64,000 bases of DNA from Candidatus Aldehydirespirator sp. (GTDB lineage Bacteria; Actinomycetota; Acidimicrobiia; Acidimicrobiales; Aldehydirespiratoraceae), in contig OZ252146.1 in the NCBI GenBank assembly GCA_965248735.1, forward strand, positions 4,050,925-4,114,924. The letters are read 5' to 3'. The first letter of the stretch is position 1. Each line of letters begins with the position of its first letter. The notes beneath the pieces are model-generated. The model saw nothing but the letters and a program-made list of their open reading frames with translations, did no database searches and was not told the DNA's origin. Position numbers and translations under genes: made by a program. Positions 47,514 through 62,433 of the stretch are shown piece after piece.

Positions 47514-47618
47514 CGTCCTGCTCCTCAGTCTCCCAGATCTGCTACCACCATGGGTTGTGGTATAGTGAAGTTGAACGATACTCAACCCAACAGCCGGCCG
47601 TGCCCGCGCGCCAAGGGA

Positions 47619-47879: not shown

Positions 47880-47972
47880 CCCCGACCCCCACAAGACACT
47901 CCGTTACAAGGTTCGGCCACGCTGGAGGGTCTTGGTGCCTGCTCGTTTGGCCACGGAGAAGGCTTGACCCGA

Positions 47973-48683: not shown

Positions 48684-49495
48684 CGGCTAAGAGCTACCGC
48701 TTGGGCGACTGATCTCCGCCTCTGCTCGGCGGCTGCGGCAGAGTGTCCACGGGAGGCGGCGCCGGGGGAGCGTTCCGGGGCGCCCTCCCGCGCTTCGAGA
48801 GGTTCGGCTCGGCACTGGGGCGAGTCTGCTTCTCGGCCATGCAATAGAACCTACATGATGATGCGCTGAAGAGCAGTGGGACTGCGGCGACCGAAGCCCT
48901 GCGAGACGACGGCATCTGAGGCTTCCGGCCTTGGCTAGCGCTTCCTTCGAGGCTTCGGCAACCTGTTGACCACACGCGGTGGTGGAGGCGGATTCTTCGG
49001 AGCCCTTCCATCCCTTACATGGATATTCCGAGACCTGTTGCCCGTCTGCTCGTCTCCCACACGGGAAGCGTACCGCAGACACGCCGTGGCGCGGTCCACC
49101 GGAGCGCCACTCGATCAGATCCTCGGCGGCGCGCTGGAACCCGGCGTTGTCGCCCCGCTGATGGCTGCGAAGCAGCGCCTTCACCAGACCACTGCGCGCC
49201 ACGCCACGAACCTGCTCGGCAGCAGCGACACCGGGCGACGACCCGTCACAGCGATGCCGTCGGCGGTTCGGTTCTTCGCTGACACCCGAGCAACCGCAGA
49301 GAATCCTGGGCAAGGCACATCTTCCGAGGGTCCTGCCCGGCCCGGAGGGCCATGTCATATGGAGGCGGCAAGCTGCACTACCCTGGCTATGCATCCTCAT
49401 GCGGCCCCGACCCACGCAGGAGACGTGCCCCTAAGGTAACCTTGGCCCATAATGCGATATTTAGTGTCGTTCGCGAGACGAGAAAGGACGATGCG

Positions 49496-50833
49496 GTGGC
49501 CAATCTGGAATCGGTGAGCCTCTTCTCCAACTGTGGGGCGGGCGATGTCGGCTTCGCGCTGGCAGGGTTCCGGTTCAGGGTTCTGGCCGAGATCGATGAG
49601 CGCCGCCTTGATGTAGCGCTTCGCAACCACAGTGACGCCTCCGGCATCGTGGGAGATCTCAGGAAGACTTGGCCCGATGTTGTCGAGTCCTACCGGGAAC
49701 GCTGTGGCTCAACACAACCAGCCCTGGTGTCGGCGTGCCCCCCATGCCAGGGGATGAGTTCGGCGCGGGGCAGCCGAGGCCACGAAAGCGACGCCGACGC
49801 CGGGAGCCGTGACGCTCGGAATCTCCTTGTAGAGGTGATCGCCGATGTCGCCAAGAAGGTAGAGCCACGGATCGTGGTGGTTGAGAACGTGCCTGCGTTC
49901 CTGTCTCGCCTCGTCATCGACCCGGACACACGCGAGCCGATCTCGGCAGCGGCGCTCCTGATTCGTTTGCTCGGAGAGCGCTATCGCGCGTTTCCGTTCC
50001 TGGCAGACCTGGCCGACTACGGGGTCCCCCAGCGCCGGGTCCGCGCCTTCCTCACGTTCATCAAGCGCGACGAGCCCGCGCTCGAACTCTTGGAACGAGC
50101 AGCCTTGGTCCCCTTCCCATGTGCTCCGATCCTCCGATCCTCCGAACCGACGACGCTCCGCGAGGCCCTCGCGGAATTGGGCGCCAAGCCGCTCGACGCG
50201 AAGTCCCCCACGGCCGCGCGGGACGACTCCAACCCCATGCATGCCGTGCCTGTCTGGGGCGACAATCGCCAGTATCGGATGGTTGCGGCGATTCCTCCGG
50301 GTTCCGGTGGCCGGGCATGGCAGAACTCGCAGTGCGAGCGATGCGGGGAGGTCGACGTCGGCTCCGAGGACGCTGTATGCCCCGTCTGTGCGGCACCACT
50401 GTTGCGCCCGGTCGTGCAGGAGGAGGACGGGTCATACAGGCTCGTGAAGGGCTTTAGGAATTCGAGTTACTCGCGCATGTCGCCTGACGCTCCGGCAGCC
50501 ACGATCACCACCGCGAGCGGTCACGTCGGCTCTGACCTGACCATCCACCCCTTCGAGAACCGGCTCTTGAGCCCGTTGGAGTGTGCATACCTCCAGACAT
50601 TCCCAGCGGATTTCGACTGGGGCACAGCGCTCAAGCGCTGGGGTCCCACCTTTGTACGCACGATCATCGGAGAGGCAGTTCCGCCGAGGTTCACGGAACT
50701 CCATGGAAGGGCCTTGAGGCGCCTGCTGGATGGCCAGACTGAGGGACTTGCTCAACAGAACGACAAAGGTGTGTTGAAGGCCGATCGGCGGCTTAGCCGC
50801 CTGCGGAGCAAGCCACTGGAGCTAACCGCGTGA
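49496..50833 (+). CDS. DNA (cytosine-5)-methyltransferase with zinc-ribbon insert
   Basis: Motif I FSNCGAGDVG, IV PPCQGMS, VI VVVENV, VIII QRRVRAF, X GEAVPP. An insert carries CERCGEVDVGSEDAVCPVCAAP. GTG start with GAAAGGA Shine-Dalgarno after an AT-rich promoter-like stretch. Confidence 0.9.
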   Translation: MANLESVSLFSNCGAGDVGFALAGFRFRVLAEIDERRLDVALRNHSDASGIVGDLRKTWPDVVESYRERCGSTQPALVSACPPCQGMSSARGSRGHESDADAGSRDARNLLVEVIADVAKKVEPRIVVVENVPAFLSRLVIDPDTREPISAAALLIRLLGERYRAFPFLADLADYGVPQRRVRAFLTFIKRDEPALELLERAALVPFPCAPILRSSEPTTLREALAELGAKPLDAKSPTAARDDSNPMHAVPVWGDNRQYRMVAAIPPGSGGRAWQNSQCERCGEVDVGSEDAVCPVCAAPLLRPVVQEEDGSYRLVKGFRNSSYSRMSPDAPAATITTASGHVGSDLTIHPFENRLLSPLECAYLQTFPADFDWGTALKRWGPTFVRTIIGEAVPPRFTELHGRALRRLLDGQTEGLAQQNDKGVLKADRRLSRLRSKPLELTA

Positions 50834-52851
50834 CGGATACCGTCCAAGACGACGATCTATACCTACGATTCCTTGGGTCGCTCATCGAAGAGCTAGGGGC
50901 AAAAATGTACCCTAGCGTGACTGCCTCTGTGGCGGAGTTGATTTCTAATGCATGGGATGCGGACGCCAAGAATGTATGGATTACCATGCCTCTCGGCAGA
51001 CGTGTGGAGAGCGACACCGACGAAATCGATGTTCTCGACGACGGCATCGGAATGTCACGGAGCGAAGCTAGAACGAAGTATCTTGTCGTTGGACGCAAGC
51101 GGCGAATCGAAGAGGACGGTTGGAAGTCTCCTGCCGGACGTTCTTTACACGGACGCAAAGGCATAGGAAAACTAGCTGCCTTCGGAACAGCTAAGAATCT
51201 ACAGTGCATAACGTTGAAACAAGGCGGAACACACACAGCGTTCGAGCTAGACTATGACAAGATCCGACGGCTCAAGGGTGGCGAGGATTACAAGGTGCCA
51301 GAACTCGTTGAGTATGCGGTCCCAGTCCGAGCTGATACTGGTCAGCCACTTGCGAACGGGACTCAAGTTCGCCTCTCCAATCTATTAGGCAAGATGATTC
51401 CAAATGAAGATCGGTTCCGCGCTTCTCTAGCCCGTCGGTTTGGTGTCCTTAGTCCTGAGATGAATATATTCCTAAACGGCAGGAATGTAGAACGGTTCGA
51501 TATCCCACTTGACATCAGGTTTCCTCGTGACGGTGTACCGGAGCCTGGAAAGGGCCTACCACCGAGAGACCCCGCGACTGGAGAGCGTACCCCACCCTTG
51601 GTCGTCGATGACGGCTGGACTATCGAGACCCTGCCTGAGGGTGAGGTCCGGTGGTGGATTGGATTCACGGCAACACCAATCGATGTTGCAGAGTTGAGAG
51701 GCATCGCAGTCCTCTCACACCGCAAGATGGTCCAGAGACCCTTCATGTTCGGTAGATCACTGGGAACCTCGGGTCAACTCGGTCAGGAGTATCTCGTCGG
51801 CGAGGTCATAGCGGACTGGATCGACAATAATATTCAGCCCGAAGAGGATCTCGTCGAGACGAACCGCAGCCAACTCCAACTGGAAGATGAACGACTCCAG
51901 GAGTTTCTTCAGTGGGGAAGACGTCGTCTAAGGTGGGCACTTGCATTGCGTTCAGAGCTCAGGAAAGACAGGGTAATCGAGACTGTCCTGCTTGATCCAG
52001 CTGTTGAGAACCGACTTGGGCAGTTTACTTCTCGAGAGCAGACAGCATTCAAGACCATCGGCAAACATCTCGCGAAGATGCCAGAAGCGGACTCGGACGA
52101 TGTAACCGATCTGATGTTGCAAATCATGGACTCCTATGATGACAAGTCCGTTAGGGAGATGATTGAAAGGATCGGTGAAACGGATGAGACAACCCAAGAG
52201 CGCATGTGGGGACTGATCGCAGAGTTCGGTCTGATTGATGCTAGGCGAACAGCTACGAGAGTGCGGGCACGAATGCAGGTCATTGAGAAGCTTGAGGACC
52301 TTGTTGCGAGCGGAGCCCTCGAAGTTCCCGAGATCCACAACCATATCCGAGACAACTTCTGGCTACTCGATCCGCGCTGGGATCTCTATGGTGATGAGGT
52401 CGATTTGACACGGATGCTTCAAGACAAGTATGGATACTCGACTAAAGAACCGGGAAGACAAGTCGATTACCTATTCTCCGTAGCGCCAACAACCCTCACT
52501 TCTGCCGATGAAGTAATAGTGGTAGAAATCAAGCGTGCGCGCAAGGCAGACGGCTCCAAGCACCGGGCCAATTCGAGCGAAGTGATCAAGTTTGCAGGAT
52601 ATGTAGAGGATGCTCTCGCTTACTACTCTCAGTCTAACAGTCCCGCTGATGTTCCATCAGTGAGAGGATTGATGATTGCCACTGGATATACTAACTCAGC
52701 GCAGATGCAGAGACGTGCACTTGAGAATGTTCCTGGTGCCAAGTATCAATTCAAGTCATGGGAGTCCGTGCTCAAGGACACCAAGCGACTGCATCAAGGA
52801 TGGCTTGAGCTATCATCCCGTCGTGGGCAGATGGCTGAGGTAGACACCTAG
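50830..52851 (+). CDS. GHKL (HATPase_c/MORC-like) ATPase fused to a C-terminal PD-(D/E)xK nuclease-like domain
   Basis: Bergerat-fold N box ELISNAWDADA, G1 DDGIGM, G2 GRKGIGKLAAFG. The C-terminus has WLLDPRWDLYG..VDYLFS..VIVVEIKRARK (D...ExK). GTGA overlap with the methyltransferase stop. About 50 % GC. Confidence 0.85.
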   Translation: MTDTVQDDDLYLRFLGSLIEELGAKMYPSVTASVAELISNAWDADAKNVWITMPLGRRVESDTDEIDVLDDGIGMSRSEARTKYLVVGRKRRIEEDGWKSPAGRSLHGRKGIGKLAAFGTAKNLQCITLKQGGTHTAFELDYDKIRRLKGGEDYKVPELVEYAVPVRADTGQPLANGTQVRLSNLLGKMIPNEDRFRASLARRFGVLSPEMNIFLNGRNVERFDIPLDIRFPRDGVPEPGKGLPPRDPATGERTPPLVVDDGWTIETLPEGEVRWWIGFTATPIDVAELRGIAVLSHRKMVQRPFMFGRSLGTSGQLGQEYLVGEVIADWIDNNIQPEEDLVETNRSQLQLEDERLQEFLQWGRRRLRWALALRSELRKDRVIETVLLDPAVENRLGQFTSREQTAFKTIGKHLAKMPEADSDDVTDLMLQIMDSYDDKSVREMIERIGETDETTQERMWGLIAEFGLIDARRTATRVRARMQVIEKLEDLVASGALEVPEIHNHIRDNFWLLDPRWDLYGDEVDLTRMLQDKYGYSTKEPGRQVDYLFSVAPTTLTSADEVIVVEIKRARKADGSKHRANSSEVIKFAGYVEDALAYYSQSNSPADVPSVRGLMIATGYTNSAQMQRRALENVPGAKYQFKSWESVLKDTKRLHQGWLELSSRRGQMAEVDT

Positions 52852-52869: not shown

Positions 52870-53574
52870 TCATAGTGCTACGAGGCGTACGTCAGCGTGC
52901 AAGTAGTCGCTGAAGATCATGCGCACACGATCACCACCAGAGTCTACCGAGCACGAGAATCTTCCTACCTGTACATCTTCCCATCCCGGTCCATAACTGG
53001 ACTCTTCACCGCCACACACGGAGCGAATGAAGCCGCGGCTCCCGATTTCACCCCAGGCCGATAGACCCGGACGTGAGGATGAAAAGAACACGTCTCTAAT
53101 CTCTGCTGATAGCGGCGCAACATCGCAGTGCACCGTCGCCTCTAGGTCAGCGGTATCCTGTGCAGTATCGAAACGCCACAAACCGCGAGCGATCTTCTCC
53201 AGAACTAGATTCACTCGCTCTAACTCAGGACGTACAGTATATGCGCTGTTATCGACTGTGGCCGCGCGAGCTAATTTCTCCCGGAGTAGAGGCCTATGTT
53301 CCAGCGTCTTGGAGATCTTATGACGCTCCAGTGCCCGTGGATCTGTTGTTCCACAAACCACCACCTCGATGAGGCTCGCTACATATTGCTCGTCGTCCGA
53401 CGAATCCGAATTGCAACCGCGGCAGCTTGGCACAGTGATTAGATCGTCGGGATATGGCTTGTCCAGAAATATCTTGGGCGGTACGTGATCAACAGTGTCG
53501 GGGAATGCACTGCCGCAATGGAAGCATGCGCCGCCGAGACGTGCGTCATGATCCGGGCGATATCGCTTCACCAT
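52870..53574 (-). CDS. HNH-type endonuclease-like protein
   Basis: CFHCGSAFPDTVDHVPPK...VPSCRGCNS gives the Cys/His arrangement of an HNH/zinc-finger nuclease. About 52 % GC, like the neighbouring GHKL gene. Confidence 0.6.
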   Translation of the reverse strand: MVKRYRPDHDARLGGACFHCGSAFPDTVDHVPPKIFLDKPYPDDLITVPSCRGCNSDSSDDEQYVASLIEVVVCGTTDPRALERHKISKTLEHRPLLREKLARAATVDNSAYTVRPELERVNLVLEKIARGLWRFDTAQDTADLEATVHCDVAPLSAEIRDVFFSSSRPGLSAWGEIGSRGFIRSVCGGEESSYGPGWEDVQVGRFSCSVDSGGDRVRMIFSDYLHADVRLVAL

Positions 53575-53665: not shown

Positions 53666-56600
53666 TCACTGCTTGGGGGGTTTGCGGTTGGCGGGGGTGG
53701 GGGTTGGTAGGTCTTTGGCTGGGATCAACGGGCCGTTGACTATCTGGGCTAGGAGGGCGGCGGCTTTGGGGGTGACCTCGACGGTGTGCTCGATGATGGA
53801 CAGGAGGAGCAAGAGTTCGTTGGTCTGGTTCCAGCGGATGGGGCGGATGTCGTCCAGAGGGCTGGACTTCCTGCCCTTTCGTGTCTTCATTCGATAGCCG
53901 AGCCAGGAGCGCACGACTCTGAGGCCGGAGACCTCGAAGTTCCACGCGTCCTCGCTTACAGGGGCGAGGGCACCGGTGCCGACGGTGAGGGTCTCGGACT
54001 CGGAGTTGTAGTCGTAGTCGTTGGGCATGCCTTCTACTGGTCGGACCTCCTTGGCTCTTCCAGCGGGAAGGTGGGACGGGCCCTTGGGGGAGAAGCGCTC
54101 TCCCCAGGTGTGCCACCACAGGAGGTCGCGACCCAGCTCTACCGCCTGCTGGAACAGGTCGGGGTCGGCGGTGATCGGAATGTGGATCGGGCCTGCGGCT
54201 TCGGCCAGTGCTTCGTTGAAGCGGCTGTGGAAGGCGCTCGTCCCGCCCAGGGCGTACGCGTAGGCCAAGAGGTCCTCAGCAGCGGCCTCGATACCGAGCC
54301 CGTCGCTGAGAGCGACCAGCAGGCCGTCTGGGACGTTGGACTCCCCTCCCTTCTGGTCTCGGTAGAGCGGCATGACGTTCTTGGCGCCGAAGGACCCCCG
54401 GAAGTGGTCGAGATCGGGTACGTAGGGCGTCGCAGTGAGCGCTGGCCCTTGCCCGAGCTTGGTGGATGTCAGCGAGGTGAGAAACACCTGGTGAAGGCCG
54501 CGTGCGCCCCAGAGCTCCGGCCTAGGCCGGTCGGCCAAGCGGTTGTCGGCAACCATCCATTGCCGGTCGAAACTCCGGTAGCCGTAACGCTCGAAACCCT
54601 CTGGCTGATCGTCCTGATCAAGCTCCCGAAGCGTCCTCAGTCGAGGACCGGCTCCCAGCAAGCGGCCGGGGGTGCTTGTCGTAGTTCGAAAGCCGGTCTC
54701 CCTGAGCAGCGGTCCTCGGTGGCGAGACACCTCATGCACGAGCGTCCGCCATCGGCGTTCGAGCAAGCCCCTACTCTCGCCGATGGGCCATGTCCGCTTG
54801 AGCTGGCATCCGGAATGAACCCAAGGGAACAGCTCCGTGATCTCGGGCCAGTTGTTGTACTCATTCTCGCTGCGGGGCGTCATGCGATCGAGGCGCTTGC
54901 CGGGCACCTGCTTGGACACTTCGGCGAGGGTGGCCTTTTGCAAGCCGGCCAGCTTCTCCAACCGAGTGCCGGCGATCCTCAGGTAGCGAACCTCGCACTT
55001 CTCCGTGCGTTCTGATCCGGTGCGCACTCCCACTGCTATAGCAACGGGGGTCTGGATGTCGAAGATGTTCTCCTCCTTTAGGGCGCCACGGCCCTCACCT
55101 CCAAGGTCCACGATCCACAGCTCGTCGAAAGCACCCCGCAATAGGTGGCGCACTCCGCCCATGGAAACGCCGTCTAGGTACGAAGAGGCAGTGATGAAGG
55201 CCACGACTCCCGGGCCTTGCGGTAACTCGGTGGCCTGCCAAATGGCCCAGCGCCAGAAGTAGACGTAGTCGTTGTAGACGTTCTTGAGGTGGCCGCCGAG
55301 GCCCGCCTCCTTCATCGGCTTGGTCACCGCGTTGAGCAGTGGGGCCAGGCTCTCGGCTCCGTAGCGGACCACGCCGCCCTTTCGTCTGCCAGCAGTCCCG
55401 GCGGCGCGCTGTTCTCTGTCGTAGGGCGGGTTGCCGATCACTACCGTGAACCGCTCGGACTCCTTCAGCTTGGCCGCCCTTTCGCCCTCATCCGCGACGG
55501 GGTCGCTGATGGTGGCGAACTGGCCTTGGCGGGCCGCGTGCTCCAGCGTGTCGGTGAGGAGGATCTGCATGGCTCCGTCGCCCGCCCCGACATGGTGCAG
55601 TTCTAGGGCGACCTTGAGGTGGGCGATGGCGTAGGGGGCGAGCATCAGCTCGAAGGCGTGCATGGATGGCAGCAGGCGGTCTTGCAAGTGCTCGGGCCAT
55701 TCGCCGGGAGCGCCGGAGACCAGGAACGACTTGCGGGCCCGGCGCAGCCACTCCACCAGGAACGTTCCGGTGCCGGTAGCCGGGTCGACCATCGACACGA
55801 ACGGCTGGTCGGGATCGACGCCCTCGGGCACCTCGAAGCCTTGGCGCTCGGCAACCTCCTGCCAAGGCGCGGCGTCGGCTATGCCCATCGGTAGACCGAA
55901 TCGGGTCCGCAGCACCTCGTCGACGGCGCGCACGATGAACTCGACGGCGGGTTGTGGCGTGTAGAACGCGCCGGCGTCGGCACGCATCTTGCGGTCGTAC
56001 TGCTTGAGGAACTCCTCGTAGAAGTGGATGACGGGGTCGCCACCCTTGATGGTGGAGTCGATCTGGTCGAGGATGGCCTCGACATTGGTCTCGCGCAGGT
56101 CGGCGACGAGCTGGGGCAGGTCGCTGCCGGGCAGATCAAGCGACACAGCCTCGTCGTGGACCTGCTCGAACAGCGCCTCCAGGAACGGGTTGGCCACCGG
56201 CACCGTCGAGAAGATCGGCGACGACCCGAAGTCCTTCGGGTTGGTCACCCGGCTGCTGAGCATCCCGTACACCAGCGTCTGGGCGCACATATCGGCGAAG
56301 CTGTCGGCGTTGACATCGCTCACCAACTGGGTACGGATCTGCTCCATGAGCGCCGAGAACGGTCCCGAGCCGTTCTCAGCCCCCAGCGCCTCGCGTATCT
56401 GGGTGCGCAGGTCGCGGGCGGTTCTGGCCATGCGGTCGGCCAGGCGGGTCGAGTCCCTGATCGTCTGGCCGACCGGCAGCTTGAACGCCTCCCACCAGGC
56501 CTTGCGCCACGACTCGATGTCGCTGTCGTCGGTCGGCCAGGCCAGGCACGGCAGCAGCTCCTCGTTTAGGCGCTGGAGATGGCGCGGCGGAGCATGCGCC

Positions 56601-57082
56601 GGCCGCCACGCCAGCGACCGGAACTCCGCCGTCTGCGGATCGCTGCCCTGGAAGGCCAACAGGTGTATCTCTACGTCGTCACCAGTTCCGGTGATCACCA
56701 CGAACAGCAGGTCTGCGAGTGCCCAGGTCGGCCTGCTCGCCGCGCCGGCGGCGCGCTTCTTGGTTACCAGCCCTCGAAGCAGGCGACGGATCGGCGTGTA
56801 CCGCAGCCTCGGCCCGCTGAATTCCAGAAAGAACACGCCCCAGGGCTGGTTCACGGTCAACGGCCGCATCTGCTGCAGCCGCTTGAAGTCATTGAGCCGA
56901 TCCGCGGGTATGCCCAACTCGGCAGGATCCCAGTCGTAGGTGACGGCAGTGAGATCGTCGTCTTCCAGGTCGGGCAGTTCCAGGGGCCAACCCTGGTCGT
57001 CCACCAGGTACCGGAAGACCTGCGCGAAGGTGCGGATGCCGCGCATCGTCTCGGCGTAGTCCGCGGGGACGCTGGAGGCCAT
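53666..57082 (-). CDS. N6-adenine DNA methyltransferase with type-ISP-like C-terminal target-recognition/coupler domain
   Basis: Motif I VDPATGTGTFLVE, FYTP (motif X-like), motif IV IGNPPYDRE. The long C-terminal region (FDRQWMVADNRL..., NFEVSGLRVVRSWLGYRMK) resembles proteins annotated as type ISP restriction/modification enzymes. ATGA overlap with the helicase gene. Confidence 0.85.
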   Translation of the reverse strand: MASSVPADYAETMRGIRTFAQVFRYLVDDQGWPLELPDLEDDDLTAVTYDWDPAELGIPADRLNDFKRLQQMRPLTVNQPWGVFFLEFSGPRLRYTPIRRLLRGLVTKKRAAGAASRPTWALADLLFVVITGTGDDVEIHLLAFQGSDPQTAEFRSLAWRPAHAPPRHLQRLNEELLPCLAWPTDDSDIESWRKAWWEAFKLPVGQTIRDSTRLADRMARTARDLRTQIREALGAENGSGPFSALMEQIRTQLVSDVNADSFADMCAQTLVYGMLSSRVTNPKDFGSSPIFSTVPVANPFLEALFEQVHDEAVSLDLPGSDLPQLVADLRETNVEAILDQIDSTIKGGDPVIHFYEEFLKQYDRKMRADAGAFYTPQPAVEFIVRAVDEVLRTRFGLPMGIADAAPWQEVAERQGFEVPEGVDPDQPFVSMVDPATGTGTFLVEWLRRARKSFLVSGAPGEWPEHLQDRLLPSMHAFELMLAPYAIAHLKVALELHHVGAGDGAMQILLTDTLEHAARQGQFATISDPVADEGERAAKLKESERFTVVIGNPPYDREQRAAGTAGRRKGGVVRYGAESLAPLLNAVTKPMKEAGLGGHLKNVYNDYVYFWRWAIWQATELPQGPGVVAFITASSYLDGVSMGGVRHLLRGAFDELWIVDLGGEGRGALKEENIFDIQTPVAIAVGVRTGSERTEKCEVRYLRIAGTRLEKLAGLQKATLAEVSKQVPGKRLDRMTPRSENEYNNWPEITELFPWVHSGCQLKRTWPIGESRGLLERRWRTLVHEVSRHRGPLLRETGFRTTTSTPGRLLGAGPRLRTLRELDQDDQPEGFERYGYRSFDRQWMVADNRLADRPRPELWGARGLHQVFLTSLTSTKLGQGPALTATPYVPDLDHFRGSFGAKNVMPLYRDQKGGESNVPDGLLVALSDGLGIEAAAEDLLAYAYALGGTSAFHSRFNEALAEAAGPIHIPITADPDLFQQAVELGRDLLWWHTWGERFSPKGPSHLPAGRAKEVRPVEGMPNDYDYNSESETLTVGTGALAPVSEDAWNFEVSGLRVVRSWLGYRMKTRKGRKSSPLDDIRPIRWNQTNELLLLLSIIEHTVEVTPKAAALLAQIVNGPLIPAKDLPTPTPANRKPPKQ

Positions 57083-60000
57083 CAGTTCAGCTCCATCCAG
57101 CAGCGCAACTGAGGATCCGGCGCGTCCATGGGGGCGTTGACCCGCTTGAGGTACGTGTCGCGCACAAGGCGCAGAACCTTGTCGCGCACCTGCTTGAGGG
57201 TGGCGCGCTCAGTGGTGCAGCGCCGGGGGGTGTTGGGCTTCGAGCGGATGCTCTCGATGATGTCACCGGGCGACTCAACGATTGAGTCCTCGCCCATGTC
57301 GTAGAGGTACCAGCGGGTGGGGCCGGCCTCCAGCGTGAACGCGCCGCTCTGCGCGTCCAATGCGGGAAGCGAGTAGCAGAAGAACACGCCGCGGGCACCC
57401 TTGGCGAGTTTGCGGCGGCCCGAGAACACCGAGCCGGGCAAGGCGTCCAAGCGCTCGGCCAGGTCGGGGTGGCGCTTGAGCAGGGCCTGATACTCCAAGT
57501 GCATCTCCTCGGCGGCGGTCCTGGTCCCCTCGTAGCTGGCGTTGAACTCGCGCAGCGGGTCGTAGGCGTCGTCGGGGCGCAGCAGCTTGCGGCCCTCGAT
57601 GCCGAGAGTATGGGAGATCAGCAGCGTCTTGCCCGCGACCTTTTCATACAGCTCAAGGATCCTCTCGAGCTCGTCGGGAGGCAGGAAGTTCCAGAACCGC
57701 ACAGTGCCGCGCTCTGCCGCCTTCTCGGGGTGGTCGACGGCCAGGCGCTGCTCCACGTCGGGGCTCATGCGACGGTCCACACGACCGATGCGCTGCATGA
57801 GCCGCACCGGGTTCCAGTGAAGGTCGTAGTTGACGAGCCTGGTGGCGTCTTGGAGGTTGAGCCCCTCCGACAGCACGTCGGTGGAGACCAGCACCCGGAT
57901 CTCGTGGAGGCCGTCGGCGGCGAGCTCCGCTGTGCTGCTGGCGTTGTAGTAGGGCGAGAACCGGCGGATCACCTCGGCACGGTCCACCTTGGAGCCGCTA
58001 TCTATGCGGACGAGGCCGTCGACGCCTGCGGCGCGCAGGTGGGACTCCACGTAGCGGGCGGTGTCGGCGAATTCGGTGAACACCAGCACCTTGCGACCAG
58101 CCAGGTCCTTCGTGCGCAGCAGCCGGACCAGCTTGCGCACCTTGTCGTCCTGCTCCGGCGTCAGCCGACTGGCGGCGTCGAGGAAGCGGGCGATCTCGTC
58201 GAGGTCCTCGAACGTCTTGTCGAGTATGGCCGCCACGTCGTAGTCGCTGCGGGACAGCTCGGTCACCGCTTCCAGCAGCTCGGGCGGGATCACGTCCTCG
58301 TCTGCGTCGTCCTCGTCCGCTTCGCCGGTGCCGTCGAGATCGAGGCCGAGCTGGACCTCGGGCCGGAAACCGAGCACGGCCGCGTGTCGACGCGTCCAGG
58401 CGTCGAAACGGTCGCGCTCAGCGCCCGGCTCGCTGTGGACCTCCACGAAGGCCAGCAGCTTGCGCATCAGCCGGTCCAGCGACTTCTCGAAGGCGTACAC
58501 CGAGCTCTCGAAACGCTTGAGGAACATCGTGCGGATCAGGCCCACCACCTGGCGCTGGCGGTTCTCCTCCACGGGATTGATGTCGTCGGGGCCGACGTAG
58601 TAGGCCAGCGGGTAGTAGATCGAGAGCGAGAACAGAGGCTGCTGGCGCCGGAAGGCCTTGTCGAACATGTCGAGCACTTCCCGATACGACGAGCGGATCG
58701 AGTACTCGGCCACCTGTGGCGGCTTGCGCTCGGGGAACGCGGTCGACTCGCCGCGTTGCTGGATCTGGCTGGCCTTCGCATAGGACCGGCTGCGCTGCAC
58801 GACCAGCGCCTTGAACACCTCGTCCGCGGCGAGCGCCTCTTGGGCTTCGGGGGTCATCCCCTCCGCGAAGGCTGAGCCGACGGCGTCGGTTGTCACCCCG
58901 CCGCCACGGGCAAGAGCGCTCTGAAGGACTCGCTCCATCACGTTGAAATGGCCCGAGAGGTTGTTCACGCCGAGGCTGCGGGCGAAGAAGGCCTCGTCGC
59001 CTCGGGTGAACAGCTCGGCCATGTGCCGGAAGTCGGCCAGACGGTTGTTGACCGGGGTGGCGGTGAGCAGGAACATCAGCTTGGGCCGGACCGAGCCGTC
59101 CAGCATGTCGAACAGGCGCCAGTAGCGCGAGCGGCGGTCCTGCCCGTCGTCGCCGGGGCCGGTCCTGCCGCCGAGGCCGCGTCCCCCGTCGGCGGTGTCG
59201 TCGCCTCGGCTGCCGCGGTTGCGGAAATGGTGGGCCTCATCGACGATCACCGCGTCGGCCAGGTCGGTGATGCGCCGGAACCGCTCCGGGAAGTCGTTGC
59301 CTCGCCCGAGGTCGGTGTGGCTGAACACGCTGAGGCTGGAGAAGTCCGCACCCCCACCGACGCCGCCGATGTGGGGCAGCCACCGGCGCAGATGCGGCTC
59401 CCAAACGCCCTCGCGGGCCGCCTTGGGAGCGAACAGCACCACCCGCTTGTTCTCGTGCAGCACGAGCCGCTCGATCAACATAAGCCCCACGAACGTCTTG
59501 CCCAAGCCCACCCCGTCGCACAGGAAGGCCCCGCCGTGCTGGCGGCAGATCTTCATCAGCGACCAGTACGCCTCCTGCTGGTAGCGATCGAGTTGGCCGA
59601 ACATGCGCGACTGCGACTCGTCCCACTCCCCCGCAGTGAGTTCACGGCCCCGGAAGAACTCGTGAAGCGCTCGGGTGTACACGTCGAACGGTGTGAACTC
59701 GGCGGTGTGGCGGGTGATGGCCCGCAGCACATCGGTGGTGACGTCCTCCGCCGCGGCCCAGTGCGTCTCGAACCAGTCCTGGAGTTGGGCGACCTCGCGG
59801 CCGCTCTGCACCTGGATGTTCAACTCGACGTTGCGGGTCAGCCCCGGCTTGGTGAAGTTGCTCGATCCCACCAGCGCCTGCGCTCCCACTACATCGAACT
59901 TGGCGTGGGTGATGTATGCCTTGGCGTGGAACTTGTTCCGCCGGTAAACCCGACACTCGATCCGGCCCTCAGCGATGGCCTCCACCACGGCCTCTACACC

Positions 60001-60306
60001 CTCCAGGAACGGGTTCGGGCCCTTCTCGTGCTCCAGACTGTCATCGAGTCGGCCAACTCGTTGGCGCAGCGCCTCCTTGAAGACCTTGTGTGTTTGCAGC
60101 GACACCTCGTCGCCCATCAACAGGCGGATCTTCTCAAGCTGCTGCCACTTGCCGTCAAGAGCCAGCAGCGCCCCGATCTCGAAGAACCCGGTGGCGATGT
60201 CGAATGATCGGGCCAGGTCGCTCCACTGGCGCAGGTACTCGAGACCCGTCCAGCCCGACACGCTGTTGTCGACGATGAACAGGTCTCCGCCGCCCGCTTC
60301 GCTCAC
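57082..60306 (-). CDS. PLD-family nuclease domain fused to SNF2-family helicase
   Basis: HKD motif FHAKAYITHAKFD..GSSNFT. SNF2 motif I LCDGVGLGKTF and motif II VIVDEAHHFRN. Helicase C LVSTDVLSEGLNLQD and WNPVRLMQRIGRVDR. Confidence 0.9.
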   Translation of the reverse strand: MSEAGGGDLFIVDNSVSGWTGLEYLRQWSDLARSFDIATGFFEIGALLALDGKWQQLEKIRLLMGDEVSLQTHKVFKEALRQRVGRLDDSLEHEKGPNPFLEGVEAVVEAIAEGRIECRVYRRNKFHAKAYITHAKFDVVGAQALVGSSNFTKPGLTRNVELNIQVQSGREVAQLQDWFETHWAAAEDVTTDVLRAITRHTAEFTPFDVYTRALHEFFRGRELTAGEWDESQSRMFGQLDRYQQEAYWSLMKICRQHGGAFLCDGVGLGKTFVGLMLIERLVLHENKRVVLFAPKAAREGVWEPHLRRWLPHIGGVGGGADFSSLSVFSHTDLGRGNDFPERFRRITDLADAVIVDEAHHFRNRGSRGDDTADGGRGLGGRTGPGDDGQDRRSRYWRLFDMLDGSVRPKLMFLLTATPVNNRLADFRHMAELFTRGDEAFFARSLGVNNLSGHFNVMERVLQSALARGGGVTTDAVGSAFAEGMTPEAQEALAADEVFKALVVQRSRSYAKASQIQQRGESTAFPERKPPQVAEYSIRSSYREVLDMFDKAFRRQQPLFSLSIYYPLAYYVGPDDINPVEENRQRQVVGLIRTMFLKRFESSVYAFEKSLDRLMRKLLAFVEVHSEPGAERDRFDAWTRRHAAVLGFRPEVQLGLDLDGTGEADEDDADEDVIPPELLEAVTELSRSDYDVAAILDKTFEDLDEIARFLDAASRLTPEQDDKVRKLVRLLRTKDLAGRKVLVFTEFADTARYVESHLRAAGVDGLVRIDSGSKVDRAEVIRRFSPYYNASSTAELAADGLHEIRVLVSTDVLSEGLNLQDATRLVNYDLHWNPVRLMQRIGRVDRRMSPDVEQRLAVDHPEKAAERGTVRFWNFLPPDELERILELYEKVAGKTLLISHTLGIEGRKLLRPDDAYDPLREFNASYEGTRTAAEEMHLEYQALLKRHPDLAERLDALPGSVFSGRRKLAKGARGVFFCYSLPALDAQSGAFTLEAGPTRWYLYDMGEDSIVESPGDIIESIRSKPNTPRRCTTERATLKQVRDKVLRLVRDTYLKRVNAPMDAPDPQLRCWMELN

Positions 60307-60373
60307 ATGACAGACCGTACCCCGCAGCTACGAGACACCCGCGGGAATCGTGGCAGTTGGGATCGCTGGCGGG

Positions 60374-60646
60374 TTAGTCGGTCGTGGCGGGCTTCGTACT
60401 CTGTTCGCCAAGTGCCTTGGAATGGTCCTGCGCGTCGGCATGGTTCCCAGCCAAGGCCGCGCCGGGTGCCTCTGAGGCAGCGGCCGCGGGCATGCCGACG
60501 TCCAGGAACCCCTCAATCCGGGCCAGCCGCTGCTCCACGCTGTCCAGGCGGTCGCGTAGCTTGTCGGTAATTCGCTGCTGGTGCCAGATAATGGCCAGCA
60601 CAGCCAGCGCCACCGTCACTATCTGCGTGACCGCGTTGAGATCCAC
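60374..60646 (-). CDS. Small single-TM protein, paralog 2 (WHQQR...RIEGFL motif)
   Basis: 90 aa: N-terminal TM IVTVALAVLAIIW, then HQQR...RLARIEGFLDVGMP, then a disordered tail. 68 nt upstream of the helicase gene. Confidence 0.5.
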   Translation of the reverse strand: MDLNAVTQIVTVALAVLAIIWHQQRITDKLRDRLDSVEQRLARIEGFLDVGMPAAAASEAPGAALAGNHADAQDHSKALGEQSTKPATTD

Positions 60647-60654
60647 GACTACGT

Positions 60655-60903
60655 CTAGTCCTGCTCGTCGGGCCTGCTGGGCCGGCTTGTCGTGCTTGCA
60701 GGGTCTGCCACCAGAAACGCTCCGGCCGTTCCCGTCGAGGAGGCCAGCGGCATCCCTATGCCCAGGTAGCCCTCGATTCGGACCAAACGCTCACCGTTCT
60801 CACCAAGCCGCTTCAGAATTGCACGCTGCTGGTGCCAGAGCATGGCCAGCATCGCCATGAACGGCATCGCGAAGGCTGTGAGCACGGCGGCATCTGCATC
60901 CAC
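60655..60903 (-). CDS. Small single-TM protein, paralog 1 (WHQQR...RIEGYL motif)
   Basis: 82 aa, GTG start: TM FAMPFMAMLAMLW, then HQQR...RLVRIEGYLGIGMP, then a disordered tail. 8-nt gap to paralog 2. An AT-rich promoter-like region lies upstream (60904-60975). Confidence 0.5.
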   Translation of the reverse strand: MDADAAVLTAFAMPFMAMLAMLWHQQRAILKRLGENGERLVRIEGYLGIGMPLASSTGTAGAFLVADPASTTSRPSRPDEQD

Positions 60904-60975: not shown

Positions 60976-62433
60976 TCAGGCTCGCATGCGGTCGCCGTCG
61001 GGGTCCCATAGGCAGCCCGACACCAGCGTCGCTCTCCGGCGGGTGCCGACTAGCTCTATCTCGAAGCGGCCCGTCGACTCGGCCAACTCCGCGGGGACGT
61101 AGCCCATGGCTACCGACGCGTCGCTGTGGTGGGCGTAGCCGCCTGACGTGACCCAGCCCACGACCTCGCCATCGTGCCACACCGGCTCGTCGCCGATGAC
61201 GTCGACCGCCTCGTCGCCCTCGCCGGTCTCGACGGTCCAGGTGCAGAGCCGCAGGCCGGTCGCCGCTACCCCGCCATCGGGGCCGGTCTCGCCGTGCTTG
61301 GCCAGCGCGTCGCGGCCCACGAAGTCCTTCTCCATGCGCACGAAGCGGCCCAGGCCGGCCTCGAACGGGTCGTAGTCGGGCCGGTACTCCCGGGCCCAGG
61401 ACCCGAACCCCTTCTCCAGGCGTAGCGAGTTCAGCGCGTGCAGCCCGAACAGCTCCAGCCCGTGCGCGGCCCCCGCGGACCGCAGGAGGTCGAACACGTA
61501 GCGCTGGTAGCGAGCCAGCATCCACAGCTCGTAGCCCAGGTCTCCGGTGAAGCTGATGCGCCCGCACCACACCGGGGCCAGGCCCACATCCATCTCACCG
61601 AACGCCATAAACCTCATGCCGTGCGCCGACACATCAGCGTCGGTGACGTCGGCCAGCAGTGCCCTCGACGCAGGCCCGGCGATGGCCAGACCGCACATCT
61701 CCGCCCCCAGCGTCCGGTAGCTCACCGATCCGTCCTCGGGCAGGTGGGCGTCGAACCAGCGCTCGTAGTAGCGCTCGGCGACACCGGAGCCGAACAGCAC
61801 GAACCGCTCGCCGTCGCGCACGTTGGCCGTGACCCCACCGACCACGGTGCCCGCGGGCCCCTCGGCCCGCCCCGGCGCGGCCAGCAGGCAGGCCACGGTC
61901 AGGTCGCCGATGAGGTTGCCCGCCGGATTGGTCATCGGCGTGAGCGCCATGCGGCCCGGCATCGGGATCCGCCCCGCCAGCAGCCGGTCGAGCCATGCCC
62001 TGGTCCCCGGTCCCTCCACCAGGAACTTGGCGAAACCGGTGGTCTCGATCAGGCAGACGCCGGCCCGCACTGCCAGCGTCTCGGCCCGCACCCGGCTCCA
62101 AGCGTTGGAGCGCCCGAAGGTGACCTCCTCGATCGGCTCAAGGCCCGGAGCCTGGAACCACAGCGCCGACTCCAGGCCGAAGGCGTCACCGAACACGGCA
62201 TTGGCCTCCACCAGCCGGTCATAGATCGGCGACGTCTGCACGCCGCGCCCCGCGGGCAGGAACTCGTTGGGGAACGTGATCCGAAACCGGCGCGAGTAGT
62301 TCTCCCGCACCTTGGTGTTGGTGTAGGTGAGCGTGGCGTGGTCGGGCCAGAACGCTGCCAATTCGCCCCCAGCGAACGCCTCCCCACCGAACTGGCAGCA
62401 AGACACCACCCATAGGGGCCAGAACGCTGCCAA
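60976..62433 (-). CDS. GcvT-type aminomethyltransferase (folate-binding) protein; looks like the C-terminal two-thirds of a dimethylglycine/sarcosine-dehydrogenase-type gene
   Basis: The central-domain-like YSRRFRITFPNEFLPAGRGVQTSPIYDRLVEANAVFG is followed by GCV_T motifs (FAKFLVEGPG, GDLGYELW, LRLEKGF) and a C-terminal barrel. No FAD/DAO domain. The first ~30 codons are encoded by REP-like repeats, so the true start is probably downstream of 62345. Confidence 0.7.
   Translation of the reverse strand: MAAFWPLWVVSCCQFGGEAFAGGELAAFWPDHATLTYTNTKVRENYSRRFRITFPNEFLPAGRGVQTSPIYDRLVEANAVFGDAFGLESALWFQAPGLEPIEEVTFGRSNAWSRVRAETLAVRAGVCLIETTGFAKFLVEGPGTRAWLDRLLAGRIPMPGRMALTPMTNPAGNLIGDLTVACLLAAPGRAEGPAGTVVGGVTANVRDGERFVLFGSGVAERYYERWFDAHLPEDGSVSYRTLGAEMCGLAIAGPASRALLADVTDADVSAHGMRFMAFGEMDVGLAPVWCGRISFTGDLGYELWMLARYQRYVFDLLRSAGAAHGLELFGLHALNSLRLEKGFGSWAREYRPDYDPFEAGLGRFVRMEKDFVGRDALAKHGETGPDGGVAATGLRLCTWTVETGEGDEAVDVIGDEPVWHDGEVVGWVTSGGYAHHSDASVAMGYVPAELAESTGRFEIELVGTRRRATLVSGCLWDPDGDRMRA

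What the first reader, a model, noticed from the sequence alone, without database searches (positions are those of the whole stretch)
53666..60903. Operon of two mini membrane proteins + PLD-SNF2 helicase + split type-ISP-like N6-methyltransferase: a non-canonical ATP-dependent restriction/defence system
**Gene order on the minus strand.**
- two paralogous small TM proteins
- a 1074-aa protein with an N-terminal PLD/HKD nuclease domain (FHAKAYI..GSSNFT) fused to a complete SNF2 motor
- a 1138-aa N6-adenine methyltransferase (DPATGTGTF, NPPY), ATGA-coupled to the helicase gene at 57081-57084, whose C-terminal third resembles the target-recognition/coupler domain of type ISP enzymes

**How it differs from known systems.**
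- Characterised type ISP enzymes (LlaGI/LlaBIII) are single polypeptides with an Mrr-type nuclease and an SF2 motor. Here the nuclease is PLD-type, the motor is SNF2 and the enzyme is split in two.
- Class 1 DISARM also combines an SNF2 helicase, an N6-methyltransferase and a PLD protein, but requires DrmA and DrmB (DUF1998), which are absent.
- BREX markers (PglZ, BrxC, BrxL) are absent too.

The methyltransferase also has a ~300-aa N-terminal region of unknown function (..NQPWGVFFLEFSG..).
Basis: partly seen in the sequence, partly recalled or inferred. Interest (0 to 1): 0.75.

Follow-up and report, generated by a model that had tools for sequence, protein, structure and literature searches.

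The report
Two-gene helicase-nuclease plus methyltransferase restriction module
Two translationally coupled genes, one for a motor-nuclease and one for a DNA methyltransferase that reads the target sequence, form a widespread, so far unnamed variant of ATP-dependent restriction-modification; the two small membrane-protein genes beside them are only neighbours.

Summary
The genes are real and intact. HEL (57082-60306, minus strand, 1074 aa) is a PLD nuclease fused to an SNF2 motor. MT (53666-57082, minus strand, 1138 aa) is an N6-adenine methyltransferase with a Type_ISP_C target-recognition domain.

They are a fixed pair. In 111 of 111 related loci with enough upstream sequence, HEL lies directly upstream of MT. 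No third gene is conserved.

MT residues 209-1136 are about 40% identical to the characterised Thermus enzymes TaqII and TaqIII. Their PD-ExK nuclease domain is replaced here by a roughly 208-aa domain of unassigned fold. That domain occurs only at the N-terminus of such methyltransferases, and in every testable locus HEL lies beside it.

Among near relatives HEL is 95-97% identical, while MT differs mainly in its recognition domain (40-70%). This is the pattern expected of restriction specificity switching.

The two small proteins are not part of the module. They occur without HEL-MT and mark a variable island next to a GcvT-like gene.

No curated model or paper I found names this pair. It fails the membership tests for Type ISP, DISARM, MANTIS, ARMADA and BREX.

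Verdict: a new variant of a known kind, probably a two-subunit ATP-dependent restriction-modification system. Function is inferred, not shown.

The parts
57082..60306 (-). HEL: a 1074-aa PLD nuclease fused to an SNF2 motor. This is the 'Res-like' subunit. GTG start at 60306; TGA stop at 57084-57082.
   Evidence: ORF and translation. Pfam PLDc_2, RE_NgoFVII, SNF2-rel_dom, ResIII and Helicase_C. PADLOC best match is 'C3a139 HKD+Snf2' at 178 bits. DrmD scores 130.6 bits against an NCBIfam cut-off of 610. Found directly upstream of MT in 111 of 111 testable loci.
59707..60306 (-). HEL aa 1-200: a PLD/HKD-type nuclease domain with a single HxK motif (H127, K129; GSSN at 147-150). Having one motif per chain implies that two chains are needed to form an active site.
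   Evidence: Pfam PLDc_2 aa 107-183 and RE_NgoFVII aa 114-181. FHAK.YITH and GSSNFT are conserved in 51 sequences. Weak profile match to BfiI, PDB 2c1l. The dimer requirement is inferred from BfiI, SauUSI and MtsD as described in bioRxiv 10.64898/2026.09.23.753747.
57697..59595 (-). HEL aa 238-870: SNF2/RapA-like SF2 ATPase motor (GLGK270T, D356EAH, TATP, QRIGRVDR). A low-complexity insert follows motif II.
   Evidence: Pfam. The best solved relatives are RapA and SNF2 remodellers. Motif conservation.
57085..57696 (-). HEL aa 871-1074: conserved C-terminal region with no family assignment. It is a candidate contact surface for MT.
   Evidence: No Pfam hit. Conserved in alignment A2. The AlphaFold model was too poor to interpret. 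The contact role is inference only.
53666..57082 (-). MT: a 1138-aa N6-adenine methyltransferase with target-recognition domain. This is the 'Mod-like' subunit. Its ATG start at 57082 overlaps the HEL stop by 1 nt.
   Evidence: Pfam Type_ISP_C, N6_Mtase and Eco57I. PADLOC REase_MTase_IIG PDLC03631 at 738 bits over aa 209-1136. Matches LlaBIII and LlaGI in the PDB. 39.9% identical to TaqIII and 39.5% to TaqII.
56459..57082 (-). MT aa 1-208: a family-specific N-terminal domain of unassigned alpha/beta fold. It sits where Type IIG relatives carry their PD-ExK nuclease. It is the proposed docking or coupling domain for HEL.
   Evidence: No Pfam hit. hhalign against the Type IIG N-terminal domain gives probability 0.2%. 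AlphaFold pLDDT 79, pTM 0.77. Foldseek finds nothing below E 0.006 in the PDB or BFVD. The profile finds 743 representative proteins; in the best 150 listed the domain is always N-terminal, and the longer ones are about 1.1 kaa. 7 of 7 sampled carry N6_Mtase plus Type_ISP_C. Its presence coincides with a HEL neighbour in 111 of 111 loci, against 1 of 16 for relatives that lack it.
56033..56458 (-). MT aa 209-350: helical linker domain shared with Type IIG/IIL enzymes.
   Evidence: The PADLOC Type IIG profile and the TaqII/TaqIII tblastn alignments begin at aa 209. TaqII domain map: REase, helical, MTase, TRD (PMC5587805).
54848..56032 (-). MT aa 351-745: gamma-class N6-adenine methyltransferase catalytic domain (motif I DPATGTGTF aa 433-441; motif IV NPPY aa 551-554 at nt 55421-55432).
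   Evidence: Pfam N6_Mtase and Eco57I. Alignment to LlaBIII residues 844-1175. Motifs conserved in 126 sequences.
53798..54847 (-). MT aa 746-1095: target-recognition domain (Type_ISP_C). It is the hypervariable part of the system.
   Evidence: Pfam E 2.5e-64. Identity to the nearest relatives falls to 40-70% in aa 681-960 and 1001-1040, against 90-100% elsewhere, while HEL stays at 95-97%. Highest column entropy.
60374..60903 (-). Two paralogous small genes: sA at 60655-60903 (82 aa) and sB at 60374-60646 (90 aa). They are adjacent and on the same strand but are NOT part of the module. They are lineage-specific genes at the edge of a variable island next to the GcvT-like gene (60976-62433).
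   Evidence: Variable copy number and position. Present without HEL-MT in L079-L085.

Best explanation
HEL and MT together form a self-contained, two-subunit, ATP-dependent restriction-modification system.

**MT, the 'Mod-like' subunit.** It recognises a short asymmetric DNA sequence through its Type_ISP_C recognition domain. It methylates an adenine there to mark host DNA.

**HEL, the 'Res-like' subunit.** It cannot find targets alone. It is recruited or licensed by MT, most likely through MT's N-terminal domain, when MT sits on an unmethylated site. Its SNF2 motor then hydrolyses ATP to move along double-stranded DNA. Cleavage happens when two single-HKD PLD domains come together to form one active site, either in a HEL dimer or when two complexes converge.

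**Evolution.** The module looks like a TaqII-type single-chain Type IIL enzyme. It lost its PD-ExK nuclease domain, gained an adaptor domain and outsourced cutting to a motor-nuclease.

**Shown here.**
- The domain content and intact catalytic motifs.
- The obligate pairing and gene overlap.
- The exchange of the N-terminal domain.
- The mosaic variation of the recognition domain.

**Inferred.** Methylation-based self-marking, the HEL-MT contact through the N-terminal domain, translocation, and the mode of cleavage.
For: 1. **Domains and motifs.** All catalytic motifs are intact and conserved.
2. **Pairing.** HEL lies directly upstream of MT on the same strand in 53/53 genome loci, 56/56 metagenome loci and 2/2 viral contigs. 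This holds down to about 30% MT identity. In the genome loci the genes mostly overlap by 1 or 4 nt. Nothing else is conserved in the flanks: the commonest flanking family is in 7 of 53 loci.
3. **Homology of MT.** MT aa 209-1136 is homologous to biochemically characterised enzymes that cleave and methylate at asymmetric 6-bp sites. These are TaqIII at 39.9% and TaqII at 39.5% identity (PMC5587805). It is also related to the Type ISP enzymes LlaBIII and LlaGI.
4. **Domain exchange.** Stand-alone relatives of about 1100 aa keep an intact GRPD...(V/I)ELK nuclease motif and have no helicase neighbour. MT has a different N-terminal domain. That domain is only ever found on such methyltransferases.
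5. **Specificity variation.** Recognition-domain mosaicism with a near-invariant HEL matches specificity switching in restriction systems. In distant loci HEL is at a median of 54.5% identity and MT at 35%.
6. **Tolerance of MT loss.** In relatives MT is often broken while HEL stays intact. This is tolerable only if HEL needs MT to find targets, as in Type I, III and ISP systems.
7. **Island context.** In the window the pair sits in a defence island with PsyrTA and a Dcm plus GHKL 'REase_II' pair.
8. **Precedent.** A PLD plus SF2 dimer effector acts downstream of a hemimethylating methyltransferase in MANTIS.
Against: - There is no experimental or methylome evidence for any member found.
- The HEL-MT contact is unproven. 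The N-terminal domain has no recognisable fold, and the HEL model was unusable.
- The PLD motif is a variant, HxK(x)4H instead of HxK(x)4D, so nuclease activity is assumed rather than shown.
- SNF2 motors also serve non-restriction roles, as in RapA.
- In many genomes the flanks are housekeeping genes rather than defence genes.
- Other PLD-SNF2 'helicase-related proteins' at about 27% identity sit in 4-5-gene clusters with other methyltransferases. Extra host factors therefore cannot be excluded.
Confidence: 0.68

Rival explanations
1. The pair is only the conserved core of a larger methylation-based exclusion system of the DISARM, BREX, ARMADA or MANTIS kind. Such a system would need further proteins encoded elsewhere, or the adjacent GHKL ATPase, Dcm and HNH-like genes. 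It might block phage without simple cleavage.
For: - An SNF2-type helicase followed by an N6-methyltransferase, in this order, is the shared pair of ARMADA and class 1 DISARM (PMC12458937).
- A GHKL plus Dcm pair lies beside HEL-MT in the window and in L028, L038 and L057, with a truncated remnant in L001.
- MORC-like GHKL ATPases are known to associate with SNF2 helicases, HNH nucleases and methylases (PMC2292703).
- Distant HEL relatives sit in 4-5-gene clusters.
Against: - No flanking family is present in more than 7 of 53 loci.
- No YprA/DUF1998, DUF499, PglZ or BrxC gene appeared among the window ORFs scanned.
- MT did not match PglX, BrxX or DrmMI models at E 0.01 or better.
- HEL carries its own nuclease domain.
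Confidence: 0.12
2. The pair has a non-defence role. MT would be an epigenetic regulator, possibly phase-variable, and HEL a RapA-like remodeller or repair factor acting at methylated or unmethylated sites.
For: - The best solved relatives of HEL are RapA and chromatin remodellers.
- Simple-sequence tracts lie inside MT genes in sponge-symbiont relatives.
- Many loci have housekeeping flanks.
Against: - The PLD nuclease motif is strictly conserved.
- The recognition domain shows mosaic variation typical of restriction specificity.
- Distribution is patchy and island-like, across at least six insertion contexts and two viral contigs.
- The nearest characterised homologues of MT are restriction enzymes.
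Confidence: 0.1
3. The two small membrane proteins would be functional components, such as sensors or effectors, of the HEL-MT system.
For: They are on the same strand, with gaps of 8 and 67 nt, and lie upstream of HEL in the window and in seven close relatives.
Against: - They are undetected in 44 of the 53 testable genome loci.
- Copy number is 0 to 2. They lie downstream of MT in L006 and on both sides of the pair in L029.
- The same GcvT locus carries four tandem copies with no HEL-MT (L079, L080).
- A single copy sits beside unrelated cargo in L081, or in a metabolic context in L082-L085.
Confidence: 0.03
4. HEL is an autonomous, SauUSI-like, modification-dependent (Type IV) ATP-dependent nuclease. 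MT would be an unrelated neighbouring methyltransferase.
For: The architecture, an N-terminal PLD followed by an SF2 motor, is the same as in SauUSI and MtsD.
Against: - Adjacency is 111 of 111, the genes overlap, and an MT-specific N-terminal domain co-occurs with HEL.
- HEL has no recognisable DNA-recognition domain.
- SauUSI is not detected by sequence even with a profile.
Confidence: 0.05

Closest known systems
Thermus-family Type IIC/IIG/IIL enzymes (TaqII, TaqIII, TspGWI)
   Same: These are the closest characterised sequence relatives of MT: 39.5-39.9% identity over aa 209-1136. The order of helical, gamma-class N6-adenine MTase and recognition domains is the same. They recognise asymmetric 6-bp sites, and specificity changes by recognition-domain differences (PMC5587805).
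   Different: Those enzymes are autonomous single chains with an N-terminal PD-(D/E)xK nuclease that cut 11/9 nt from the site without ATP. MT lacks that domain, carries an unrelated domain of about 208 aa instead, and always has a PLD-SNF2 partner.
Type ISP restriction-modification enzymes (LlaGI, LlaBIII)
   Same: They have a Type_ISP_C recognition domain and a gamma-class MTase. They combine a nuclease, an ATP-driven SF2 motor, an MTase and a recognition domain in one functional unit. Their translocation-collision model is the best mechanistic analogy.
   Different: They are single polypeptides with an Mrr-type nuclease. Their motor was not detected as homologous to HEL: 4xqk and 5ffj do not appear among HEL matches. 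Here there are two genes, a PLD nuclease and an SNF2 motor.
Type III restriction-modification (Mod + Res)
   Same: Two subunits: a methyltransferase that also carries target recognition, plus a helicase-nuclease that depends on it. In both, losing Mod is tolerated because Res cannot find targets without it.
   Different: Res is an SF2 helicase with a PD-ExK nuclease, and Mod is a beta-class MTase. The gene order is mod then res. No sequence match to Type III models was seen among the listed hits.
MANTIS (Gao_RL, BREX-related type 2): MtsC methyltransferase plus MtsD PLD-helicase
   Same: A PLD plus SF2 ATPase effector that forms one PLD active site per dimer. It acts downstream of a hemimethylating N6-adenine MTase that supplies sequence recognition (bioRxiv 10.64898/2026.09.23.753747).
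   Different: MANTIS needs MtsA (a DUF499 AAA+ ATPase) and MtsB, and neither was found here. MtsC is a different MTase family. An NCBIfam model for a PLD-containing anti-phage protein scores 133 bits against a cut-off of 1100.
Class 1 DISARM (DrmA, DrmB, DrmC, DrmD, DrmMI)
   Same: It combines an SNF2 helicase, a PLD nuclease and an N6-adenine MTase.
   Different: DrmA and DrmB (DUF1998) were not found. HEL scores 130.6 bits against the DrmD cut-off of 610. MT does not match DrmMI. The PLD is fused to the helicase.
ARMADA (BrxHII/RapA-like helicase + PglX-like methyltransferase + YprA-like helicase)
   Same: An SNF2-type helicase gene followed by a large N6-MTase gene. It is common in Actinomycetota (PMC12458937).
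   Different: ARMADA requires a YprA-family helicase-nuclease, which was not found here. Its helicase has no PLD domain and its MTase is PglX/YeeA-like. MT is TaqII-like and matches no PglX model.

Membership tests
Type ISP R-M | Nuclease, helicase, MTase and recognition domain in one polypeptide | tested here: not met
   There are two ORFs with a 1-nt overlap. They are two genes in all 111 related loci.
Type ISP R-M | Mrr-family PD-(D/E)xK nuclease domain | tested here: not met
   The nuclease domain is PLD/HKD (Pfam PLDc_2 and RE_NgoFVII).
Type ISP R-M | Gamma-class N6-adenine MTase followed by a Type_ISP_C recognition domain | tested here: met
   Pfam PF18135 E 2.5e-64. phmmer to LlaBIII (4xqk) 6.3e-25 and LlaGI (5ffj) 2.2e-19.
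Type ISP R-M | Unidirectional ATP-driven translocation, with cleavage on collision of two enzymes at head-to-head sites | not testable with these tools
   Needs biochemistry.
Thermus-family Type IIC/IIG/IIL (TaqII-like) | N-terminal PD-(D/E)xK endonuclease domain in the same chain | tested here: not met
   Stand-alone relatives carry GRPD...(V/I)ELK. MT aa 1-208 has no such motif. hhalign probability is 0.2%. Foldseek finds no nuclease match.
Thermus-family Type IIC/IIG/IIL (TaqII-like) | Homologous helical, MTase and recognition-domain body | tested here: met
   39.9% identity to TaqIII and 39.5% to TaqII over aa 209-1136. PADLOC PDLC03631 at 738 bits.
Class 1 DISARM | DrmA helicase and DrmB (DUF1998) present | tested here: not met
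   Not found among the window ORFs scanned. No conserved third gene in the flanks of 53 loci.
Class 1 DISARM | DrmD-type SNF2 helicase and DrmMI methyltransferase by curated models | tested here: not met
   NCBIfam DrmD scores 130.6 bits against a cut-off of 610. No DrmMI model is among the MT hits.
MANTIS / Gao_RL (BREX-related type 2) | MtsA (DUF499 AAA+ ATPase) and the small co-regulator MtsB | tested here: not met
   Neither was found among the window ORFs scanned or as a conserved flanking family.
MANTIS / Gao_RL (BREX-related type 2) | PLD plus SF2 ATPase effector (MtsD) | tested here: inconclusive
   The architecture is the same. No MtsD sequence was available for comparison. The NCBIfam model 'phospholipD_antiphage' scores 133 bits against a cut-off of 1100, and I could not confirm that it represents MtsD.
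BREX | PglZ, BrxC and a PglX-type methyltransferase | tested here: not met
   None was found among the window ORFs scanned. MT does not hit PglX or BrxX models.
ARMADA | YprA-family (DUF1998-type) helicase-nuclease beside the helicase-methylase pair | tested here: not met
   No conserved third gene. None was found among the window ORFs scanned.
Type III R-M | Mod carrying recognition plus a Res helicase-nuclease that depends on it (functional architecture) | tested here: inconclusive
   The architecture is analogous, and MT-broken but HEL-intact loci fit that dependence. No homology to Type III models was seen. The dependence itself is untested.

The most novel reading that the evidence does not exclude
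HEL-MT represents a widespread, unnamed class of ATP-dependent restriction-modification system.

- In it, a Type IIL (TaqII-like) enzyme has swapped its built-in PD-ExK nuclease for a dedicated adaptor domain.
- That adaptor recruits a PLD-SNF2 motor-nuclease.
- This would be an evolutionary bridge between single-chain Type IIL/ISP enzymes and multi-subunit Type I/III, DISARM and MANTIS systems.
- In sponge-symbiont lineages the methyltransferase may also be switched on and off by simple-sequence repeats.
Probability: 0.5. Interest if true: 0.65.

Novelty: new variant of a known kind. Interest (0 to 1): 0.55.

Why it matters
**Scale and annotation.**
- The N-terminal domain that marks this family matches 743 protein representatives at 50% clustering, 525 of them at E 1e-10 or better.
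- In the plasmid records I inspected, RefSeq labels MT's stand-alone relatives 'type ISP restriction/modification enzyme' and HEL's distant relatives 'helicase-related protein'.
- PADLOC's REBASE-derived models score MT as a Type IIG nuclease-methyltransferase fusion, although it has no nuclease domain. I expect that a tool using such models would miscall it or miss it; I did not run one.

**If it is confirmed as a two-gene system:**
- It adds a compact ATP-dependent restriction type with a swappable recognition domain.
- It gives a clean case of a restriction enzyme outsourcing its nuclease to a motor protein.
- It offers a simpler model than MANTIS or DISARM for how a methyltransferase licenses a PLD-helicase effector.

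Tried and rejected
- **AlphaFold model of HEL.** A 27-sequence alignment gave pLDDT 49.7 and pTM 0.38. This was too poor, so I ran no fold search on it.
- **Fold of the MT N-terminal domain.** The model was decent (pLDDT 79). Foldseek found nothing significant in the PDB or BFVD. Weak hits to nuclease-like proteins such as CidB and tRNA-splicing endonuclease had probabilities of 0.2 or less and were not used.
- **Degenerate PD-ExK idea.** I tested whether the N-terminal domain is a decayed Type IIG nuclease domain. hhalign gave probability 0.2%, so this cannot be claimed.
- **Simple-sequence-repeat enrichment in MT genes.** It was significant in the genome set (P = 0.0013). It did not replicate in 80 metagenome loci. 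I therefore treat it as lineage-restricted and tentative.
- **Promoter and terminator scan of 53.3-61.1 kb.** It was no better than shuffled sequence.
- **tRNA and direct-repeat scans for island borders.** They found nothing useful.
- **Phage database.** No relevant hit.
- **Literature.** Searches for PF18135/Type_ISP_C returned no papers. Other searches found MANTIS, ARMADA, Hma and BREX-related systems but none with this gene pair.
- **PADLOC 'C3a139 HKD+Snf2'.** A sibling model, C3a193, is described as 'poss. alt. Cas3'. I therefore take the C3a names to be a set of candidate helicase-nucleases, not a defined defence system.

Full report
**1. What is in the sequence**

The window is about 70% G+C. 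Its closest relatives are sponge-associated Acidimicrobiia genomes assembled from metagenomes. On the minus strand lie four ORFs:
- sA, 60655-60903, 82 aa;
- sB, 60374-60646, 90 aa;
- HEL, 57082-60306, 1074 aa;
- MT, 53666-57082, 1138 aa.

HEL carries a PLD/HKD domain (Pfam PLDc_2 and RE_NgoFVII) followed by a complete SNF2-type motor (SNF2-rel_dom, ResIII, Helicase_C). MT carries N6_Mtase and Eco57I signatures and a full Type_ISP_C domain (E 2.5e-64).

The catalytic motifs are present and conserved:
- In HEL: FH127AK129, GSSN150, GLGK270T, D356EAH and QRIGRVDR, conserved in 51 homologues.
- In MT: DPATGTGTF and N551PPY, conserved in 126 homologues.

**2. HEL and MT are a fixed pair, and nothing else is**

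I collected relatives of MT from three sources:
- 185,579 species-representative genomes;
- JGI metagenomes, searched with a profile of the MT N-terminal domain;
- IMG/VR viral contigs.

Wherever the contig left at least 3.3 kb upstream, a HEL homologue lay directly upstream on the same strand. The counts are 53/53 genome loci, 56/56 metagenome loci and 2/2 viral contigs. This holds down to about 30% MT identity.

In the genome loci the two genes mostly overlap by 1 or 4 nt. I clustered all flanking ORFs of the genome loci. No family appears in more than 7 of 53 loci, and those reflect shared insertion sites. The module is therefore two genes.

**3. The small proteins are neighbours**

sA and sB are paralogues, each with a hydrophobic N-terminus. 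They accompany HEL-MT only in one clade, where the island sits 3' of Rieske and GcvT-like genes.
- There they occur in 0, 1 or 2 copies upstream of HEL.
- In L029 they flank the pair on both sides. In L006 they lie far downstream.

A protein search found 328 family members. Their contexts are telling:
- The same GcvT locus carries four tandem copies followed by other defence genes, with no HEL-MT (L079, L080).
- One copy sits next to a transposase and a PLD-methyltransferase fusion (L081).
- One copy sits in a purely metabolic context (L082-L085).

They mark the edge of a variable island. They are not components of the system.

**4. What MT is related to**

- PADLOC's REBASE-derived Type IIG model PDLC03631 matches aa 209-1136 at 738 bits.
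- In the plasmid collection the best hits are the Thermus aquaticus plasmids CP020571 and CP020572 (39.9% and 39.5% identity over aa 209-1136).
- Skowron et al. (PMC5587805) show that these plasmids encode TaqIII and TaqII. Both are characterised Type IIC/IIL enzymes with the domain order REase, helical, MTase, recognition domain. They recognise CACCCA and GACCGA respectively.
- Stand-alone relatives of about 1100 aa in Chloroflexota and other phyla keep an intact GRPD...(V/I)ELK nuclease motif and have no helicase neighbour.

MT has a different N-terminal domain of about 208 aa:
- It has no detectable sequence relation to the Type IIG nuclease domain (hhalign probability 0.2%).
- It has no Pfam hit.
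- Its AlphaFold model is fairly confident (pLDDT 79, pTM 0.77), but that alpha/beta fold matches nothing in the PDB or BFVD.

A profile of this domain finds 743 representatives among 1.84 billion clustered proteins. In the best 150 listed, the domain is always at the N-terminus. The longer ones are about 1.1 kaa and the shorter ones look like fragments. All seven distant members I sampled carry N6_Mtase plus Type_ISP_C, some with an extra SLFN_AlbA_2 or GmrSD_N domain.

The domain's presence tracks the HEL neighbour closely: 111/111 loci, against 1/16 for relatives that lack it (the exception is a degraded copy). This makes it the prime candidate for the HEL-coupling surface. That role is an inference.

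**5. Signs of restriction-type selection**

- Twenty-five HEL clusters are 95-97% identical to the window protein. The MT proteins on the same contigs are only 83-88% identical.
- The differences are concentrated in aa 681-960 and 1001-1040, which are 40-70% identical. The rest is 90-100% identical. This is recognition-domain replacement, as between TaqII and TaqIII.
- In distant loci HEL is at a median of 54.5% identity and MT at 35%.
- In about eight relatives MT is broken while HEL is intact. This is tolerable only if HEL depends on MT for targeting, as in Type I, III and ISP systems.

**6. Mechanism proposed**

MT recognises an asymmetric site and methylates one adenine. On an unmodified site it licenses HEL through its N-terminal domain. 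The SNF2 motor then translocates on duplex DNA.

Each HEL chain has a single HxK motif, so two PLD domains must pair to cut. This is the case in BfiI, SauUSI and the MANTIS effector MtsD, as described in bioRxiv 10.64898/2026.09.23.753747.

Only the parts list, the pairing and the variation pattern are shown here. The steps themselves are inferred.

**7. Comparison with known systems**

| System | Why the pair is not a member |
|---|---|
| Type ISP | Two genes, a PLD rather than Mrr nuclease, and a motor not detectably related |
| Class 1 DISARM | No DrmA or DrmB found; DrmD scores 130.6 bits against a cut-off of 610 |
| MANTIS | No DUF499 ATPase or MtsB found |
| ARMADA | No YprA-type helicase found; MT is not PglX-like |
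| BREX | No PglZ or BrxC found |

In architecture it is nearest to Type III (Mod plus Res) and in lineage to TaqII-like Type IIL enzymes.

RefSeq labels MT's stand-alone plasmid relatives 'type ISP restriction/modification enzyme' and HEL's distant relatives 'helicase-related protein'. Five literature searches found no description of this pair. I could not query REBASE or run DefenseFinder or PADLOC system calling.

**8. Context**

The pair sits in a defence island of about 21 kb (39.5-60.9 kb). The island also holds:
- PsyrT/PsyrA (893 and 268 bits);
- a protein with a SWIM zinc finger that matches PADLOC PDC-S62;
- an XRE-M78 regulator;
- a DUF6338 protein;
- a Dcm gene plus a GHKL-ATPase 'REase_II' gene;
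- a low-GC, HNH-like ORF.

The ten large ORFs I scanned between 3 and 37 kb are housekeeping genes.

**9. Verdict**

This is a real, intact and widespread two-gene module. It is most likely a two-subunit ATP-dependent restriction-modification system, and so a new variant of a known kind. The 'operon with two membrane proteins' reading is not supported. Function remains untested.

Noticed in passing
Relatives L006, L014, L029, L046, L048, L049, L052, L055, L056 (inside the MT gene, about aa 416-995); not in the window MT: Long simple-sequence tracts (G10-G15, C9-C16, (AG)17) lie at different codons of MT genes in sponge-symbiont Acidimicrobiia. In six loci the reading frame breaks exactly at the tract. 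There are 9 tracts in 198 kb of MT, against 1 in 174 kb of HEL and 9 in 869 kb of flanks (P = 0.0013). This suggests phase-variable switching of MT. The enrichment did not replicate in 80 metagenome loci. Many of these assemblies appear to be long-read, so homopolymer length errors could also explain the broken frames.
   Followed up: partly
L001 9308-9984, L004 9147-9911, L038 9160-9836, L057 9279-9970: A Phd-like antitoxin (93-98 aa) and a PIN/VapC-like toxin (about 132-144 aa) are inserted between HEL and MT in four relatives. This breaks the usual gene overlap but leaves MT intact in all four and HEL intact in two (L001, L004).
   Followed up: partly
window 49352-52851 (+) and 52870-53574 (-): A C5-cytosine methyltransferase (493 aa) overlaps a 673-aa GHKL (HATPase_c_3) protein that matches REBASE-derived 'REase_II' models. 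The region is low in G+C (0.53-0.58, against about 0.70). It also holds a 234-aa Cys-rich, HNH-like ORF with no family hit. This is a second, MORC-like restriction-modification module. Similar Dcm plus GHKL pairs lie beside HEL-MT in L028, L038 and L057, with a truncated remnant in L001.
   Followed up: partly
window 39494-42903 (-): A RecQ-like helicase fused to a phosphoribosyltransferase (758 aa; PADLOC PsyrT, 893 bits) sits with a DprA/SLOG-like protein (PsyrA, 268 bits). This looks like a PsyrTA toxin-antitoxin or defence pair. The same pair recurs at the far side of the island in L003, L079 and L080.
   Followed up: partly
window 43000-48700: Further island cargo: a 667-aa protein with a SWIM zinc finger and DUF6880 that matches PADLOC PDC-S62, an XRE-HTH plus M78 peptidase regulator resembling RmrA and CapP, and a DUF6338 membrane protein.
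   Followed up: no
L079/L080 8744-9973; window 60374-60903: The small-protein family (hydrophobic N-terminus, WHQQR, RIEGxLGxGMP; 328 members of 58-108 aa among those listed) forms tandem arrays of up to four copies 3' of the DAO/GcvT gene. That position is the edge of a variable defence island. Its function is unknown.
   Followed up: partly
L086 (Deinococcus radiophilus pRadio5), L087 (Euzebya pacifica plasmid), L088 (Nostoc plasmid): PLD-SNF2 'helicase-related proteins' only about 27% identical to HEL sit in 4-5-gene clusters. The clusters contain other large N6-methyltransferases (in L086 and L088), DUF262 proteins (in L086 and L087) or a phosphorothioate-DNA-binding endonuclease (in L087). 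This points to a broader theme of PLD-SNF2 effectors partnered with varied modification modules.
   Followed up: no
P0405, P0492, P0465 (distant MT-family members): Some family members carry extra C-terminal domains: SLFN_AlbA_2 or GmrSD_N (DUF262).
   Followed up: no
L090, L091 (IMG/VR contigs): The HEL-MT pair occurs on two predicted viral contigs, with HEL 50-61% and MT 30-32% identical to the window proteins. I did not check whether these are true phages or prophage-adjacent islands.
   Followed up: no
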